Positions 476-29,879 of a stretch of 54,022 nt of DNA are shown here, in pieces; position 1 is the stretch's first letter; every line of letters begins with the position of its first letter. The position numbers and the translations under genes are program-made. Origin of the DNA: Patescibacteria group bacterium (GTDB lineage Bacteria > Patescibacteriota > Minisyncoccia > UBA6257 > Brennerbacteraceae); the NCBI GenBank assembly GCA_040753135.1, contig JBFMGR010000004.1, positions 1 through 54,022 on the forward strand, written 5' to 3'. Below the pieces are notes generated by a model. The model did not search any database. It was not told the DNA's origin and worked only from the letters and a program-made list of their open reading frames with translations.

Positions 476-2337
476 TTTTTACCTTCTTTTGAAGTTTTTT
501 TAGGCGAGCTTTCCAATTTTAACATCTGCTCAAACTCTTCTTTTTCAATTGTTTCTGCTTCGATTAGCCTTCTGGCAATTTTATCCAAGAACTTTCTTTT
601 CTGATTAATAATTTTTTTGGCTTTGTCAAACGCCTCATCAATCAACCTTTTAATCTCTTTATCTATCTCTTCGGCAACTTTCTCAGAATAATTTTTTTCC
701 ATTACCAAATCCCGACCTAAAAACACCAGCTCCTCTGAATGACCATAAGACAAGGGACCGATTTTTTCCGACATCCCGTATTGAGTAACCAATTTTCTTG
801 CTTGCTCTGAAACTTGCTTCAAATCATTACTGGCGCCGGTGGTTAATTCGCCAAAAACAATCTTCTCTGCGGCATAACCGCCCAACATCACTGCCAGTTC
901 ATCCAAAAGCTGGGTTTGGGAATAAAGATGCCTGTCTTCAACCGGCAACTTTAAAGTATAGCCAGCCGCCCGGCCCCGGGAGATAATAGAGATTTTATGA
1001 ACCGGATCAGTGTGGGGCAAAAATCCGGCCACCAGAGCGTGGCCAGCTTCATGATAAGCAGTAATCTCTCTTTCTTTTTGAGTCAAAATATGGCTTTTTC
1101 TTTCCGGCCCCAAAATCACTTTTTCCATTGCTTCAAACAAATCTTCCTGCTCAATCTGCTTTCTGTTTTTTCTTGCCGCTAAGATTGCCGCTTCGTTAAT
1201 TAAGTTGGCCAGATCAGCGCCGGAAAATCCCGGGGTTCTTTGGGCAACTTTGTTCAAGTTAATCGCAGCTGAAGATTTTTTATCCTTAATATGAATTTTC
1301 AGAATCTCTTCCCTTTCCTTTATATCAGGCGAATCCAAAATCACCCGGCGGTCAAATCTGCCCGGCCGAAGCAAAGCTGGATCCAGAACATCAGGCCGAT
1401 TAGTTGCAGCAACAACAATCACATTGGTATCCCGGTCAAACCCGTCCATCTCCACCAAAATCTGGTTTAGGGTCTGTTCCCGTTCATCATGGCCGCCGCC
1501 CAAACCAGAACCTCGCTGCCGGCCAACCGCATCAATTTCATCAATAAAAATAATTGACGGCGCCGCTTTTTTCGCAGTAACAAACAAATCTCTGACCCGG
1601 GAAGCGCCAACACCAACAAAAAGCTCAACAAATTCAGAGCCAGAGATGTGGAAAAACGGCACTCCGGCCTCACCTGCGACTGCTCTGGCCAGTAAGGTTT
1701 TCCCCGTGCCGGGCGCGCCCATTAAAAGCACACCCCGGGGAATTCTGGCGCCGATATTTAAAAACTTCTTTGGATTTTTTAAAAAATCAACTACTTCTTT
1801 CAGCTCTTCTTTTGCCTCATCTAAACCAGCAACATCTTTAAAGCTGACTTTCTCTTTTGGGTTAACAAATAAACGGATATTAGCTCGGCCAAAATTAAAG
1901 CTCTGCATCATGCCTTTTTGCGCTTGCCGAGACAAGAAAAAGAAAATTCCTAAAATCAGCAAAAACGGCAAAATCACCTGAATCAATATTGAGAGCCAAA
2001 AAACTCCGCCAAACAAATTCGAGCTGACTTTTATTTCCACCCAATTTAAAGCTTCTTGGCTAACGCCATAATTAACCAATGTTTCGGTCAAAGACGCTTC
2101 TTTTTCCTTTTCTGAAACAAACTCTTTCTCCTGATAATCGATAATTTTTAACTGATCTTCAGAGATCTCGATTTTCTTAATTTCCTGGTTTTCAACTTTT
2201 CTGGCTAATTCTGATAAAGAAATCTCTTCGGGTTTTTTCGCTTCCGAACCGGTAAAAAAAGAAAAAAGCACTGATAATCCAATCAGGACAAACAAAGCAA
2301 TAATAAAACTCCGAAAAAAACGGTTCAAAACCTTCAT
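472..2337 (-). CDS. ftsH: ATP-dependent zinc metalloprotease FtsH
   Basis: 621-aa ORF with N-terminal TM helices, Walker A GAPGTGKT, Walker B IIFIDEID and zinc motif HEAGH. Confidence 0.95.
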
Positions 2338-6280: not shown

Positions 6281-6587
6281 TGGTGCCGCAGGAGGGAATC
6301 GAACCCCCTACACGATGCTCTTCCTAGCCTTTGTTTTTATATAAAAACCAAAGAAAGGGACTATCTCATCACCCCGATAAGGGGTGCCAGGTCCTAAATG
6401 CAGAATTATTGTTGGAACTCATCTGCTAGTCTCTACACCTTCCTCGCTACCAATGTCCTGCGAGGCTTGGCTCGGGATTATTCTATTAACCAGAACTTCC
6501 CCCGAATTCACCCGGTTTTCATTTCCGCATTACTGCGAAACGGCCCGAAGAGATTAGGCATCTGCTCTACCAATGAGCTACTGCGGC
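6281..6587 (-). tRNA. tRNA-Phe(GAA), intron-containing; exons 6587..6556 and 6323..6281; CCA encoded
   Basis: Hand-folded. 5' exon GCCGCAGTAGCTCATTGGTAGAGCAGATGCCT, 3' exon GAAGAGCATCGTGTAGGGGGTTCGATTCCCTCCTGCGGCACCA. Joined, they give a cloverleaf with anticodon loop CUGAAGA, A73 and a GTGTx variable loop like E. coli tRNA-Phe. Confidence 0.8.
6324..6555 (-). ncRNA. Group I (IC3-like) self-splicing intron in the tRNA-Phe anticodon loop
   Basis: The intron starts AAUCUCUUCGGGC. CUCUUC pairs with 3'-exon GAAGAG (P10), and GGGC pairs with 5'-exon GCCU with a U.G at the splice site (P1). The intron ends in G. The internal strings CCGAGCCAAGC and GAAGGTGTAGAGACTAG match, as I remember them, the Azoarcus / cyanobacterial tRNA intron core. 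There is also a GNRA hairpin GCA-GUAA-UGC. Confidence 0.75.
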
Positions 6588-6596
6588 TTAAAATTT

Positions 6597-6624
6597 ATTT
6601 TAAAGATTTTCCCAAATAAATCAA
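6597..6624 (-). promoter_or_regulatory. Putative sigma70-type promoter of tRNA-Phe (TTGATT-16-TAAAAT)
   Basis: The -10 ends 9 nt before tRNA nucleotide +1, implying a leader of only about 3 nt. Confidence 0.5.
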
Positions 6625-6707: not shown

Positions 6708-7414
6708 ATGAGAAAAGACAAAAGTAAAGCATTACAATTAAGAAAAATGGGGAGAAGTTATAATGAGATACATAAACTTCTGAAAATTCCTAAAAGCACT
6801 CTTTCTGGCTGGTTTCATAATTTAAATCTTCCGCTAAGAGCAAAGTCGCGATTGGGAAAACGGATAAAAGAAAAATCGTTAAAGGGGCTGCTTAAAAAAA
6901 GCAAAGAACAGACGAAAAAGGCTCAAGAAAGAATGAAACAAACAAGAAAATTAGCTAAGAGCAGCATTTCAAAATTGAGCCAAAAAGATCTCAAATTGAT
7001 TGGGGCTTCCCTTTATTGGGCAGAAGGATATAAACGCCCGATTATCCGCAACAATAAAGAAATTACCTCTCATCCTGTTGCTTTAACAAACCTTTAACAA
7101 ACAGCGACCCAAAACTTATTAAAATATTCCTCCGTTTTTTAATTGAGATCTGTCAAGTACAAGAAAAAAATATCAAAATAGATATAAGAATGTATAAACA
7201 TATGAGGAGAGAAAAAACTATTTCTTTTTGGCAAGAAATTACTGGTCTCCCCAAAAATCGTTTCGGAAAAATTTATTTAGGTATCAGCAAATCTAGCTCT
7301 AATAAACGACCATTTAATCGACTCCCTTATGGAACAGTCATGATAAGAGTTAACAATACAAACTTATTCCACAACATAATGGGGTGGGTTGAAGGCATAA
7401 AAGAAAAAACTTAA
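6708..7414 (+). pseudogene. HTH + LAGLIDADG-like homing endonuclease, frameshifted
   Basis: ORFs 6708..7097 and 7190..7414 belong to one gene. It has an N-terminal resolvase-type HTH (GRSYNEIHKLLKIPKSTLSGWF) and a LAGLIDADG-like motif IGASLYWAEG. Deleting one copy of the 11-bp duplication at 7081..7102 gives the continuous reading ..PVALTNSDPKLIKIFLRFLIEICQVQEKNIKIDIRMYKHMRREKTISFWQEITG.. Confidence 0.7.
7081..7102 (+). repeat. Perfect 11-bp tandem duplication CTTTAACAAAC x2 that causes the frameshift
   Basis: Read directly: gttg ctttaacaaac ctttaacaaac agcgac. Confidence 0.9.
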
Positions 7415-10324: not shown

Positions 10325-10331
10325 AGTTTAG

Positions 10332-10403
10332 TGCCCCCAGGAAGAATCGAACTTCCATCGCAAGATCCGCAATCTTGTATTCTATCCATTAAACTATGGG
10401 GGC
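10332..10403 (-). tRNA. tRNA-Arg(GCG), no encoded CCA
   Basis: Hand-folded: GCCCCCA acceptor, anticodon stem CAAGA/TCTTG, loop UUGCGGA, T arm GGAAG-TTCGATT-CTTCC. Confidence 0.85.
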
Positions 10404-13627: not shown

Positions 13628-13656
13628 TTGACGATGTGTTTACCATTTATTACAAT
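13628..13656 (+). promoter_or_regulatory. Promoter TTGACG-17-TACAAT positioned for a leaderless HNH mRNA
   Basis: The -10 ends 7 nt before the A of ATG 13663. Confidence 0.5.
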
Positions 13657-13662
13657 CTATAT

Positions 13663-14145
13663 ATGGCAAAGGGACGTTCGTGGGAAGAAAAACAACTTCA
13701 GGAAGCAGTTAAAAAGAGTTTTAGTTATAGACAAACGCTGATTAAATTAGGGTTACGCCCCACGGGTGGAAATTATCACCAAATTAAAAAATATATCAAA
13801 GAATTAAAGGCAGATACCACACATTTCAAAGGAAAGGGATGGAATCTGGGACTTCGGGGTATCGGCAAGCCGCGAATTCCAACCAAAAAAATATTAGTCA
13901 AAAACAGTTCTTTTCAAACTTATAAAGTAAAACAGAGACTTTTCAAAGAAGGATTAAAACCTCAATACTGTGAAGAATGTGGTTGGGCCGAAAAAACACT
14001 TGATGGATATCTGCCGCTCGAACTTGACCATATTAACGGAGACAGAACCGATAACAGAATCAAAAATTTAAGAATCCTTTGCCCCAATTGTCATAGTTTG
14101 AAACCAACTTATAGAGCAAGAAAAAATAAAAAGAAACCTGGGTGA
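13663..14145 (+). CDS. HNH homing endonuclease
   Basis: C-terminal HNH motif CEECGW..LELDHINGDRTDNRIKNLRILCPNCH. ATG 13663 preferred over GTG 13636. The last two codons, GGG TGA, are tRNA-Leu nucleotides 1-6. Confidence 0.8.
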   Translation: MAKGRSWEEKQLQEAVKKSFSYRQTLIKLGLRPTGGNYHQIKKYIKELKADTTHFKGKGWNLGLRGIGKPRIPTKKILVKNSSFQTYKVKQRLFKEGLKPQYCEECGWAEKTLDGYLPLELDHINGDRTDNRIKNLRILCPNCHSLKPTYRARKNKKKPG

Positions 14146-14221
14146 GTGGCGGAATCGGTATACGCGCAGCACTTAAAATGCTGTGCCGCGAGGCTTGAGG
14201 GTTCGAGTCCCTCCTCACCCA
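14140..14221 (+). tRNA. tRNA-Leu(UAA), type II, no encoded CCA
   Basis: Hand-folded: GGGTGAG acceptor, D arm GTGGCGGAATCGGTATACGCGC like E. coli tRNA-Leu, loop CUUAAAA, variable arm GCC-GCGA-GGC. Confidence 0.9.
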
Positions 14222-14228
14222 CACCAAC

Positions 14229-29106: not shown

Positions 29107-29769
29107 ATGAGCCCAATGTTTAGAAGAAAGAATGAAGTGCTCTTTGAAAAATGGACTAGTCAAATGGCTTATGTTTTGGGATATATTTTAGCAGATGGCT
29201 CCTTAATCAAAAATAAACGAGGCGCTTATTTTACAGAGATTCAATCTATAGATAAAGAAATTATCGTGAAAATAAGGAAAGTTTTTGATTCGGATTTAAA
29301 AATCAGCGTTTACAAACCCAAAAAGGGCCGGATAAGATACCGTCTTCAGATTGGTTCTAAAAAAATATTTACAGATCTTTTAAAACTCGGCATAAAACCA
29401 AAGAAAAGTTGTCATGAAAAACTGCCCAAAATTCCCAGTAAATACTTTTCTGACTTTTTGAGAGGATATTTTGATGGCGACGGAAGTGTCAACATCTGTA
29501 CATATCAACGAAAAGACAGAAACAAAAAATCAACGGTTTTAAGCTCGGGTTTTACTTCTGGCGGCAAATTGATTCTAAAACAAATATGGCGGAATCTAAA
29601 ACTGAAGAAAATTATAGCTGGTGGGACCCTATATTTTCATGAACGTAGCTACCGTCTTTGGTTTTCCATTCATGATTCTTTATCTCTCTATAACTTTCTT
29701 TATCAGAACGTCGAAAATGGTTTATTTTTAACGAGAAAAAAGAGGATTTTTGAAAGATATAAAAATTAA
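29107..29769 (+). CDS. LAGLIDADG homing endonuclease (two-motif, monomeric type)
   Basis: Motifs MAYVLGYILADGSL and FLRGYFDGDGSV. The stop TAA (29767..29769) is immediately followed by tRNA-Asp nucleotide 1. Confidence 0.85.
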   Translation: MSPMFRRKNEVLFEKWTSQMAYVLGYILADGSLIKNKRGAYFTEIQSIDKEIIVKIRKVFDSDLKISVYKPKKGRIRYRLQIGSKKIFTDLLKLGIKPKKSCHEKLPKIPSKYFSDFLRGYFDGDGSVNICTYQRKDRNKKSTVLSSGFTSGGKLILKQIWRNLKLKKIIAGGTLYFHERSYRLWFSIHDSLSLYNFLYQNVENGLFLTRKKRIFERYKN

Positions 29770-29844
29770 GGGCCAGTGGAGCAGCCCGGAGTGCTCGTCT
29801 CCCTGTCACGGAGAAGGTCGCGGGTTCAAATCCCGTCTGGCCCG
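29770..29844 (+). tRNA. tRNA-Asp(GUC), no encoded CCA
   Basis: GGGCCAG/CTGGCCC acceptor, loop CUGUCAC, GTCGCGGGTTCAAATCCCGTC like E. coli tRNA-Asp, G73. Confidence 0.9.
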
Positions 29845-29879
29845 CTAAAAATTTCTAACTAAACTTAGAAAATAAAACA

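What the first reader, a model, noticed from the sequence alone, without database searches (positions are those of the whole stretch)
6281..6587. tRNA-Phe(GAA) gene split by a 232-nt group I intron between U33 and G34
Minus strand 6587..6556 gives the acceptor stem, D arm, 5' anticodon stem and C32-U33. Minus strand 6323..6281 gives GAAGA, the 3' anticodon stem, variable loop, T arm, acceptor stem and ACCA. Joined, they form a canonical 75-nt tRNA with anticodon loop CUGAAGA. The intervening 232 nt begin AAUCUCUUCGGGC. CUCUUC is a perfect complement of the first 6 nt of the 3' exon (P10). The adjacent GGGC pairs with the exon end GCCU, placing a U.G wobble exactly at the 5' splice site (P1). 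The last intron base is G (omega-G). The internal strings CCGAGCCAAGC, GAAGGTGTAGAGACTAG and AGATAGTC match the conserved core of the Azoarcus tRNA-Ile and cyanobacterial tRNA-Leu IC3 introns as I remember them. The bacterial tRNA group I introns I know of sit in Leu(UAA), fMet, Ile(CAU) and Arg(CCU). A Phe(GAA) host with a 33/34 insertion point is not among them. Track ORF 6398..6619 lies on the opposite strand inside the intron and is spurious.
Basis: partly seen in the sequence, partly recalled or inferred. Interest (0 to 1): 0.75.

Follow-up and report, generated by a model that had tools for sequence, protein, structure and literature searches.

The report
Group I intron splitting tRNA-Phe gene
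The only phenylalanine tRNA gene seen in this stretch of a tiny "Parcubacteria" bacterium is interrupted just before its anticodon by a well-conserved self-splicing-type (group I) intron, which travels together with a neighbouring, so far uncharacterised gene that may be what spreads it.

Summary
Minus strand 6587..6281 is a tRNA-Phe(GAA) gene split between U33 and G34 by a 232-nt group I intron (Rfam RF00028 54.2 bits, gathering 50; ARAGORN intron mode agrees). The same intron sits at the same site in every distinct Patescibacteria tRNA-Phe gene recovered, 13 of them aligned. There 97.8% of pair cells are paired and 41 of 72 pairs carry compensatory changes. P1 and P10 co-vary with the exons, and the tRNA 15-48 tertiary pair co-varies across the intron. 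Syntenic relatives (DnaE, RNase HII, tRNA-Phe, RecG) carry an uninterrupted tRNA-Phe, so the intron is sporadic, as mobile introns are. It is not unique: related introns split Thr, Asn, Asp, Tyr, Gln, Lys and Met/Ile tRNA genes in metagenomes, always after a U. A 2021 paper and an unread 2025 preprint already mention tRNA group I introns in this phylum. Unexpectedly, a 231-aa helix-turn-helix ORF family lay within 140 nt of an intron-bearing tRNA-Phe in all 7 lineages sampled from the protein side. It is broken in the window by an 11-bp duplication. I read it as a candidate free-standing homing endonuclease working with the ORF-less intron, but nuclease identity is not shown. Self-splicing is inferred, not tested.

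The parts
6556..6587 (-). tRNA-Phe(GAA) 5' exon: acceptor 5' strand, D arm, 5' anticodon stem, C32, U33
   Evidence: Sequence read. The acceptor and D stems are 100% paired in 13 homologues.
6324..6555 (-). Group I intron, 232 nt, no ORF. Helices on the minus strand: P2 6539-6534/6529-6524; P3 6515-6509/6393-6387; P4 6505-6500/6477-6472; P5 6495-6493/6483-6481; P6 6471-6469/6439-6437; P6a 6465-6460/6447-6442; P7 6431-6427/6363-6359; P8 6386-6382/6374-6370; an AU-rich P9 hairpin; omega-G at 6324.
   Evidence: RF00028 54.2 bits over the full-length model. Helix coordinates come from alignment A3.
6543..6552 (-). Internal guide region. CUCUUC (6552-6547) pairs with the 3' exon GAAGAG (P10). GGGC (6546-6543) pairs with the exon end GCCU 6559-6556 (P1, U33.G wobble).
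   Evidence: In one search, P1 is 100% paired with 2 of 4 pairs changing on both sides (GC/CG, CG/AU). P10 is 98.6% paired and switches C-G to U-A at position 37 in the A37-type tRNAs (L056, L063).
6400..6426 (-). Extra hairpin between P7 and P3' (P7.1-like), GCAGA-UGAGUUCCAACAAUAAU-UCUGC, with a conserved 17-nt loop
   Evidence: The stem co-varies (helices 12-13). The loop motif occurs in 9 of 13 tRNA-Phe introns and in 0 of 67 introns of other tRNAs.
6281..6323 (-). tRNA-Phe 3' exon: G34 A35 A36 G37 A38, 3' anticodon stem, variable loop, T arm, acceptor 3' strand, A73, encoded CCA
   Evidence: The 15-48 tertiary pair co-varies across the intron.
6597..6624 (-). Promoter-like site TTGATT-16 nt-TAAAAT, ending 10 nt upstream of tRNA position +1
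   Evidence: Consensus scan, 9 of 12 matches. This is weak evidence only.
6708..7414 (+). Broken gene of the HTH + 'LYWAEGYK' family, the intron's constant neighbour. It is divergent from the tRNA and starts 120 nt from the tRNA 5' end. The reading frame is split by an 11-bp tandem duplication, TTTAACAAACC, copies at 7082-7092 and 7093-7103.
   Evidence: Removing one copy restores a 231-aa protein that is 50-61% identical over its full length to intact homologues. Linkage to intron-bearing tRNA-Phe is shown.

Best explanation
[quoted passage not shown] The gene is transcribed as a roughly 307-nt precursor, and the intron folds into the standard P3-P8 / P4-P6 core with the P7 guanosine-binding helix. 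The guide sequence GGGC pairs with the exon end GCCU (P1, U33.G), so an external guanosine can attack after U33. The adjacent CUCUUC holds the 3' exon GAAGAG (P10). Omega-G (6324) then enters the P7 site and the exons are ligated, giving a normal 75-nt tRNA-Phe with encoded CCA. What is shown: the sequence anatomy, the covariance-model match, covariation of every variable helix including P1 and P10, covariation between the two exons, conservation of the site, and presence/absence polymorphism at the orthologous locus. What is inferred: that splicing happens and is autocatalytic. A second, less certain layer concerns spread. The intron is probably mobilised in trans by the adjacent HTH protein family, acting as a free-standing homing endonuclease that cuts intron-less tRNA-Phe genes. 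Both elements would then be copied in together ('collaborative homing'), with the intron protecting its own gene by splitting the target. In the window that gene is already decaying, which fits the usual homing-endonuclease life cycle.
For: Intron identity:
- RF00028 scores 54.2 bits (gathering 50) over the full-length model, E = 4.7e-11.
- ARAGORN calls tRNA-Phe i(33,232).
- RF00028 reaches gathering at 53-110 bits in 14 homologous Phe introns.

Structure, on alignment A3 of 13 distinct sequences:
- 97.8% of cells are paired, against 82.6% in shuffles and at most 51% when the partners are slid.
- 41 of 72 pairs change on both sides, and 0 of 500 shuffles reach the observed values.
- RNAalifold independently finds P1, P2, P3, P4, P5, P6, P6a and P8.

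Function as one tRNA:
- P1 and P10 track exon changes. GCCU/GGGC becomes GCCCU/GGGGC and GACU/GGUC; CUCUUC/GAAGAG becomes AUUUUC/GAAAAU.
- The tertiary pair 15-48 is G-C in 7 sequences, U-A in 5 and U-G in 1, across the intron.

Orthology and sporadic distribution:
- Relatives keep FtsH-DnaE-RNase HII-(AAA_33)-tRNA-Phe-RecG with an uninterrupted tRNA-Phe. These are L160 and L161/L162, where RF00005 scores 64-66 bits.
- The closest relative, L158/L159, reads straight through ..GGCCUGAAGAGCC...

Linked ORF:
- Starting from the protein, 7 of 7 lineages have it 0-137 nt from an intron-bearing tRNA-Phe. Three different arrangements occur and the flanking genes are unrelated.
- Starting from the intron, 7 of 13 loci have it.
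- It is absent from the intron-less syntenic loci.
- In the same window, true HNH and LAGLIDADG_3 genes occupy the same niche at the 5' ends of tRNA-Leu and tRNA-Asp.
- The collaborative-homing concept is described in PMC3984707.
Against: - No splicing data exist, neither RNA-seq nor in vitro.
- The Rfam score of the window copy is only 4 bits above threshold.
- P1 has only 4 base pairs.
- The window's P9 differs from that of its relatives: an AU-rich hairpin with no GNRA loop.
- Only 54 kb are available, so a second intact tRNA-Phe cannot be excluded.
- For the homing layer, the C-terminal domain of the ORF matches no nuclease family. Pfam, NCBIfam and PHROGs find only the HTH. hhalign against I-CreI and against a LAGLIDADG_3 alignment gives probabilities below 1%. 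Foldseek against PDB and BFVD gives nothing at E < 0.01.
- Four intron-bearing loci lack the ORF.
- A paralogue abuts an intron-less tRNA-Arg(UCU).
Confidence: 0.85

Rival explanations
1. The intron is real, but the flanking HTH protein is not a homing endonuclease. It could be a DNA-binding or transposase-like protein of a small element that targets tRNA-gene borders. It could also be a regulator or an RNA chaperone/maturase, in which case its linkage to the intron reflects shared insertion preference or function rather than trans-homing.
For: - Only the HTH domain is recognisable, and it resembles transposase or resolvase HTH domains.
- No nuclease fold or motif is statistically supported.
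- A paralogue sits beside an intron-less tRNA-Arg.
- Sources name some members 'transposase' or 'resolvase HTH'.
Against: - 7 of 7 sampled lineages sit next to intron-bearing tRNA-Phe in three orientations and different neighbourhoods.
- The ORF is absent where the intron is absent.
- Invariant E106, K109, H122, N128, D130, R157 and H218 in the C-terminal domain suggest an enzyme.
- The gene is dispensable for the intron: it is broken in the window and missing at 4 loci. That argues against an obligatory maturase.
Confidence: 0.45
2. The split gene is a dead copy. The intron no longer splices, or needs a lost cofactor, and a second intact tRNA-Phe elsewhere in the genome does the work.
For: Only 54 kb of the genome are visible. 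The window copy has the lowest Rfam score of the set and a divergent P9. The neighbouring ORF is already a pseudogene.
Against: - Every core helix is intact, and the exons keep a perfect cloverleaf with CCA.
- The locus is the orthologous tRNA-Phe position of relatives.
- The site and exon-intron pairings are under purifying selection across many lineages, and the tertiary pair 15-48 co-varies across the intron.
- PMC8172020 reports that complete genomes of this radiation reach a full tRNA set only when the group I intron-bearing genes are counted.
Confidence: 0.07
3. The match is a chance resemblance or an assembly chimera, with tRNA halves fortuitously flanking an unrelated sequence.
For: None beyond the modest bit score of the window copy.
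Against: E = 4.7e-11 for the whole window. The same architecture was recovered independently from many assemblies and sources.
Confidence: 0.01

Closest known systems
Bacterial tRNA anticodon-loop group I introns (cyanobacterial/plastid tRNA-Leu(UAA), cyanobacterial tRNA-fMet, Azoarcus tRNA-Ile(CAU), Agrobacterium tRNA-Arg(CCU))
   Same: Both are small (about 200-250 nt), ORF-less introns in the anticodon loop that follow a U. They share P1 and P10 built from anticodon stem-loop nucleotides, an omega-G and a compact core. The strings CCGAGCCAAGC and GAAGGUGUAGAGACUAG match my own recollection of the Azoarcus ribozyme. PMC4090602 and PMC8450103 confirm that such introns are known in fMet, Ile2 and related tRNAs.
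   Different: The host is tRNA-Phe(GAA), and the insertion lies between U33 and G34, upstream of the whole anticodon. From memory, the classical sites are 34/35 for Leu and 36/37 for Ile and Arg. There is an extra conserved hairpin between P7 and P3', specific to the Phe lineage. The host phylum is Patescibacteria. A flanking ORF is consistently present.
[quoted passage not shown] 2021, PMC8172020; Nakagawa et al. 2025, bioRxiv 10.1101/2025.07.03.662931, title only)
   Same: The phylum and the phenomenon are the same: tRNA genes missed by tRNA finders because of group I introns.
   Different: PMC8172020 gives no tRNA identities or insertion sites. I could not read the preprint, so I cannot say whether Phe 33/34 or the linked ORF is described there.
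Collaborative (trans) homing: free-standing endonuclease plus ORF-less intron (cyanophage psbA/F-CphI; T3/T7-like phage DNA polymerase), as reviewed in PMC3984707
   Same: [quoted passage not shown] Intron-plus and intron-minus alleles occur at the same locus, and the linked gene decays in some copies.
   Different: Here the partner protein belongs to no recognised endonuclease family and its activity is unknown. The host is a bacterial chromosome and a tRNA gene, not a phage protein-coding gene.
Phage T4 SegB-type free-standing homing endonucleases in tRNA gene clusters (my own knowledge)
   Same: Selfish endonuclease genes lie between or next to tRNA genes. The window has HNH and LAGLIDADG_3 genes abutting tRNA-Leu and tRNA-Asp.
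   Different: SegB is a GIY-YIG enzyme with no intron involved.

Membership tests
Group I intron (Rfam RF00028) | Score at or above the curated gathering threshold of the covariance model, with a full-length match | tested here: met
   54.2 bits against 50, model positions 1-253, E = 4.7e-11. Homologues score 53-110 bits.
Group I intron (Rfam RF00028) | P1 formed by the 5' exon end and an internal guide, with a U.G wobble at the 5' splice site | tested here: met
   GCCU/GGGC. The U.G pair is present in 13 of 13 sequences, and two P1 pairs change on both sides with the exon.
Group I intron (Rfam RF00028) | Terminal guanosine (omega-G) and P10 pairing with the 3' exon | tested here: met
   G at 6324, invariant in the alignment. 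P10 is 98.6% paired and shows a C-G to U-A switch at position 37.
Group I intron (Rfam RF00028) | Conserved core helices P3-P8 and P4-P6 with the P3/P7 pseudoknot, supported by covariation | tested here: met
   P3, P4, P5, P6a and P8 all have pairs changed on both sides. P7 (GACUA/UAGUC) is invariant and fully paired. 0 of 500 shuffles reach the observed values.
Group I intron (Rfam RF00028) | Guanosine-dependent self-splicing | not testable with these tools
   This needs in vitro transcription with GTP and Mg2+, or RNA-seq junction reads.
Subgroup IC3 (Azoarcus / Anabaena tRNA intron type) | IC3-specific core sequence and peripheral architecture (P2, short P5, P9, no P7.1/P7.2) | tested here: inconclusive
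   The core strings resemble my recollection of Azoarcus, but no subgroup classifier or reference alignment was available. The Phe lineage has an additional conserved hairpin between P7 and P3'.
Classical bacterial tRNA group I introns | Host and site among Leu(UAA), fMet, Ile(CAU) and Arg(CCU) | tested here: not met
   The host is Phe(GAA) and the site is 33/34. The intron works like these introns, but in a different host and at a different site.
Collaborative homing module | An ORF-less intron with a consistently linked gene outside it | tested here: met
   7 of 7 protein-first lineages and 7 of 13 intron-first loci.
Collaborative homing module | Intron-plus and intron-minus alleles at the orthologous locus | tested here: met
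   L160, L161/L162 and L158/L159 have an uninterrupted tRNA-Phe at the syntenic position and no ORF.
Collaborative homing module | The linked gene encodes a site-specific endonuclease whose target spans the intron insertion site | not testable with these tools
   Sequence and fold searches found no nuclease relationship. A cleavage assay is needed.
LAGLIDADG homing endonucleases (for the flanking ORF) | Significant profile or fold match to LAGLIDADG domains | tested here: not met
   No Pfam LAGLIDADG hit. hhalign probability is 0.2% against I-CreI and 0.1% against LAGLIDADG_3. Foldseek gives nothing significant. What remains is a motif resemblance (ASLYWAEG against AGLIDADG) and an alpha-beta-beta-alpha start of the model.

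The most novel reading that the evidence does not exclude
The roughly 231-aa HTH + 'LYWAEGYK' proteins are a new, unannotated class of free-standing homing endonuclease. The family has more than 5,000 50%-identity clusters, essentially all in Patescibacteria. [quoted passage not shown]
Probability: 0.35. Interest if true: 0.8.

Novelty: new member of a known kind. Interest (0 to 1): 0.55.

Why it matters
Standard tRNA finders miss these genes. ARAGORN in default mode missed this one, and the authors of tRNAscan-SE say it was not designed for group I introns (PMC8450103). Patescibacteria genomes can therefore look as if they lack tRNA-Phe, and also Thr, Asn and others, which distorts completeness and codon-usage inferences.

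Biologically, an essential single-copy tRNA that depends on ribozyme splicing in organisms with minimal RNA-processing machinery is a notable dependency. The 33/34 site extends the known range of tRNA insertion points while keeping to the 'after a U' rule.

The tight and repeated linkage to an uncharacterised protein family gives a directly testable candidate for a new homing-endonuclease class. It would also be a chromosomal, bacterial example of collaborative homing. The compact intron with its extra P7.1-like hairpin is a possible new ribozyme scaffold.

Tried and rejected
- **Locating the source contig.** Exact-protein look-ups of the window's own RNase HII (with the TTG start) and RecG found nothing on record.
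- **Literature.** The 2025 preprint is not held. Two classical papers (PMC179611, PMC395396) are not held. The classical insertion positions I quote are therefore from memory.
- **Identifying the ORF's C-terminal domain.** All of the following found only the HTH or nothing significant:
  - Pfam on single sequences, on 7 members, and on 10 remote or tandem members;
  - a PDB profile search;
  - NCBIfam and PHROGs;
  - hhalign against I-CreI and against a LAGLIDADG_3 alignment;
  - Foldseek of a pLDDT-86 AlphaFold model against PDB and BFVD.
  I therefore dropped my initial label of 'broken LAGLIDADG gene'.
- **Resolving hosts of the core-pattern loci without a split-tRNA call.** Brute-force splicing of 45 such loci (79,713 junction combinations) found no tRNA. 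A control showed that the method does recover known cases. The subset I inspected (20 loci through Rfam, 15 by eye) turned out to be introns in the tmRNA T-loop, in one tRNA(CAU), or in protein-coding, phage-like genes; others lie at contig ends.
- **D-loop pairing idea.** I considered that the conserved P7.1 loop pairs with the tRNA D-loop (CCAA with UUGG). There is no covariation, since L036 changes the D-loop but not the hairpin loop, so I rejected the idea.
- **Chance matches in the genome scan.** The archaeal and other hits of the first scan (L002-L005, L007, L010-L017) are chance pattern matches or protein-spliced archaeal tRNA introns, not relatives.

Full report
**1. The observation**

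- The 5' exon is 32 nt (6587..6556) and ends ...GAUGCCU.
- The intervening sequence is 232 nt (6555..6324). It begins AAUCUCUUCGGGC and ends GGCUAG.
- The 3' exon is 43 nt (6323..6281). It begins GAAGAGCAUC and ends with an encoded ACCA.

Default ARAGORN finds eight tRNAs in the window but not this gene, and no other tRNA-Phe. In intron mode it calls tRNA-Phe(gaa) i(33,232). The joined exons are called tRNA-Phe on their own and fold as a perfect cloverleaf at -30.8 kcal/mol.

Rfam's curated group I model RF00028 matches 6329..6565(-) from the first to the last model position. The score is 54.2 bits against a gathering score of 50, with E = 4.7e-11 for the whole window. It is the only such hit in 54 kb. 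The intron alone folds somewhat better than shuffles (z = -2.2). A sigma-70-like site (TTGATT-16-TAAAAT) ends 10 nt upstream of tRNA position +1; this is weak evidence.

**2. Relatives**

A pattern across P7', P9, omega-G, GAARA and the T arm was scanned over one genome per GTDB species. It found the same split tRNA-Phe in five Patescibacteria representatives labelled Paceibacterota, Saccharibacteria and 'Patescibacteria group'. The other 13 matches were chance hits or archaeal protein-spliced introns.

Among these loci and those from the genome scan, ARAGORN resolved 79 distinct split tRNA genes:

| Host tRNA | Site | Distinct genes |
|---|---|---|
| Asn(GUU) | 35/36 | 29 |
| Thr(UGU) | 33/34 | 20 or more |
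| Phe(GAA) | 33/34 | 13 |
| Asp, Tyr | 35/36 | few |
| Lys(CUU), Met/Ile(CAU) | 36/37 | few |
| Gln, Thr(GGU) | 33/34 where resolved | few |

Wherever a U/omega-G boundary could be assigned, the intron follows a U, as P1 requires. Of the core-pattern loci with no split-tRNA call, those I inspected were introns in the tmRNA T-loop, in a tRNA(CAU), or in phage-like protein-coding genes.

All tRNA-Phe cases sit at 33/34 once boundary ambiguity is resolved by requiring U at -1 and a terminal G.

**3. Structure and selection**

Thirteen distinct tRNA-Phe precursors align well (A3). RNAalifold independently recovers the tRNA stems and P1, P2, P3, P4, P5, P6, P6a, P8 and an extra hairpin. In 44 of its 68 pairs at least one sequence has changed on both sides while keeping the pair.

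I then counted pairs for an explicit pseudoknotted structure that adds P7 and P10.
- 97.8% of cells are paired, against 82.6% in shuffles and 37-51% when the partners are slid by 1-3 columns.
- 41 of 72 pairs change on both sides.
- 0 of 500 shuffles reach any of the observed measures.

P1 and P10 follow the exons.

| Sequences | Exon end / guide (P1) | Guide / 3' exon (P10) |
|---|---|---|
| Window | GCCU / GGGC | CUCUUC / GAAGAG |
| L018 type | GCCCU / GGGGC | not listed |
| L056, L063 (A37 tRNAs) | GACU / GGUC | AUUUUC / GAAAAU |

P7 (GACUA/UAGUC) is invariant.

The tertiary tRNA pair 15-48 joins a 5'-exon base to a 3'-exon base. It is G-C in seven sequences, U-A in five (including the window) and U-G in one. 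That is hard to explain unless the two halves end up in one functional tRNA. Rfam scores 14 of the relatives' introns at 53-110 bits.

A crude neighbour-joining ordering puts 12 of 13 Phe introns together, whatever the tRNA-Phe subtype. L006 falls among Thr(UGU) 33/34 introns, which hints at a second colonisation of the site.

The hairpin between P7 and P3' has a conserved loop, UGAGUYCCAACAAUAAU. The motif occurs in 9 of 13 Phe introns and in none of 67 others. Its role is unknown.

**4. Organism and orthologous locus**

The window's RNase HII is most similar (65% identity) to that of 'Parcubacteria group bacterium GW2011_GWC1_45_9'. The next named hits are all Parcubacteria/Patescibacteria.
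- That genome (L160) and another lineage (L161/L162) keep the order FtsH-DnaE-RNase HII-(AAA_33 kinase)-tRNA-Phe-RecG.
- Their tRNA-Phe(GAA) is uninterrupted, on the same strand as in the window, and only 83-130 nt from RecG.
- The window has the 232-nt intron and 829 nt between the tRNA and RecG.
- Two contigs of the closest relative (75% identity) end inside a tRNA-Phe that reads straight through the insertion site.

So this is the lineage's ordinary tRNA-Phe locus, and the intron is present in some lineages and absent in others.

**5. The neighbour**

ORFs 6708..7097 and 7190..7414 are one gene broken by an 11-bp tandem duplication (TTTAACAAACC, 7082..7103). Removing one copy gives a 231-aa protein. 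It is 50-61% identical, end to end, to intact proteins lying directly beside intron-bearing tRNA-Phe genes in L009, L018/L030, L049 and L052, with a partial copy in L100. Relatives at 27-33% identity abut intron-bearing tRNA-Tyr genes.

A profile search finds 2,078 members in the 90%-clustered database. All named members come from Patescibacteria and are labelled hypothetical or 'HTH'. In the 50%-clustered library there are 5,146 clusters, some with 2-3 tandem copies in one protein.

I sampled seven lineages starting from the protein. All seven place the gene 0-137 nt from a tRNA-Phe carrying a 202-234-nt intron at 33/34.
- Upstream on the same strand, with the stop codon touching tRNA position +1 in P0020: P0020, P0091, P0100.
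- Upstream and divergent, as in the window: P0003, P0097.
- Downstream: P0107, P0038.

The surrounding genes differ in every case. The gene is absent from the intron-less syntenic loci. Four intron-bearing loci lack it (L006, L056, L063, L073).

In the window itself, a true HNH gene (13636..14145) overlaps the start of tRNA-Leu(UAA). A true double-motif LAGLIDADG_3 gene (29107..29769) ends one base before tRNA-Asp. So tRNA 5' borders are a niche for homing-endonuclease genes in this genome.

**6. What the neighbour is remains open**

An AlphaFold model (pLDDT 86) shows an HTH, a long helix and an alpha/beta domain. That domain starts with a helix ending in the invariant E106-G107 of 'LYWAEG'. 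The motif resembles LAGLIDADG.

However, none of the following gives any significant link to a nuclease family: Pfam, NCBIfam, PHROGs, a PDB profile search, hhalign against I-CreI and LAGLIDADG_3, and Foldseek against PDB and BFVD. The endonuclease role is therefore an inference. It rests on linkage, on the niche the gene occupies, on the presence/absence pattern and on the decay of the gene. It follows the collaborative-homing model reviewed in PMC3984707.

**7. Comparison with what is known**

Group I introns in bacterial tRNA anticodon loops are long known (PMC4090602). tRNAscan-SE 2.0 notes them in fMet and Ile2 tRNA genes and says the program does not detect them (PMC8450103). Lui et al. 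2021 remark that some tRNAs of complete genomes from this radiation carry group I introns (PMC8172020).

[quoted passage not shown] I therefore cannot claim that Phe 33/34 is unpublished.

**8. Verdict**

The feature is real, well supported and almost certainly functional.
- It is a new member, in host and site, of a known kind, within a phylum where the phenomenon has been noticed but scarcely described.
- The most interesting product of this check is not the intron itself. It is the invariant association with a large uncharacterised protein family, together with the intron-plus and intron-minus alleles at one locus. Together these make a collaborative-homing hypothesis directly testable.

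Interest 0.55. Confidence in the intron reading 0.85. Probability that the neighbour is a new homing endonuclease about 0.35.

Noticed in passing
window 13636..14145 (+) and tRNA-Leu(UAA) 14140..14222 (+): An HNH endonuclease gene (Pfam HNH_3/HNH; PHROG HNH 8e-46) has a 3' end that overlaps the first bases of an intron-less tRNA-Leu(UAA) gene. tRNA-Leu(UAA) is the classical cyanobacterial intron host.
   Followed up: partly
window 29107..29769 (+) and tRNA-Asp(GUC) 29770..29845 (+): A free-standing double-motif LAGLIDADG_3 gene (Pfam 5.9e-10; PHROG endonuclease 7e-37) ends exactly one base before tRNA-Asp. A similar 221-aa LAGLIDADG_3 gene ends 5 nt before tRNA-Leu(GAG) in L147.
   Followed up: partly
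window 7082..7103 (+): An 11-bp tandem duplication, TTTAACAAACC-TTTAACAAAC(A), frameshifts the HTH gene. Intact homologues read ...HP(V/I)(A/S)LTNSDP... straight through this point.
   Followed up: yes
window 10331..10403 (-); also L139-L146: A tRNA-Arg with anticodon GCG (loop UUGCGGA) replaces the ACG/inosine tRNA usual in bacteria. The same tRNA is seen in the Wolfebacteria-like loci.
   Followed up: no
L139 1189..1917 (+) and tRNA-Arg(UCU) 1880..1952: A 242-aa paralogue of the HTH-LYWAEG family (hmmsearch 2e-41) overlaps the 5' end of an intron-less tRNA-Arg(UCU). It is called as a gene in some population variants (L139, L143) and not in others (L140, L142, L146).
   Followed up: partly
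L027 2702..3309 (-), L031 4995..5602 (-): Group I introns of the same core type lie in the T-loop region of tmRNA genes. RF00023 and RF00028 hits abut, and the exon reads GGGGUUCGAU|.
   Followed up: no
L034 422..1357, L037 1062..1973; L107, L093, L039, L080, L048, L058: Other nuclease-type genes flank intron-bearing tRNA genes. A 304-312-aa HNH-like protein lies next to tRNA-Thr(GGU) introns. Small GIY-YIG proteins lie 68-395 nt from Thr and Asn introns.
   Followed up: no
L006 5946..6282 (-), L001 1..172: These Paceibacterota tRNA-Phe introns lack the Phe-specific hairpin loop. L006 groups with tRNA-Thr(UGU) 33/34 introns in a crude tree, and the truncated L001 copy closely resembles it. This suggests an independent colonisation of the same site.
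   Followed up: partly
P0304, P0311, P0315, P0323, P0333, P0344: These are 424-576-aa members of the HTH-LYWAEG family with two or three tandem copies of the unit in one polypeptide. Pfam sees only HTH domains.
   Followed up: partly
L158 end (4170), L159 end (1464): Two independent assemblies of the closest relative both stop at the same base inside tRNA-Phe, 5 nt upstream of the intron insertion site. This may reflect population heterogeneity upstream of that point.
   Followed up: no
L056 2505..4781 (-): An intron-bearing tRNA-Phe (A37 type) lies in a tRNA cluster about 490 nt downstream of a 16S rRNA gene (RF00177, 1455 bits), on the same strand.
   Followed up: no
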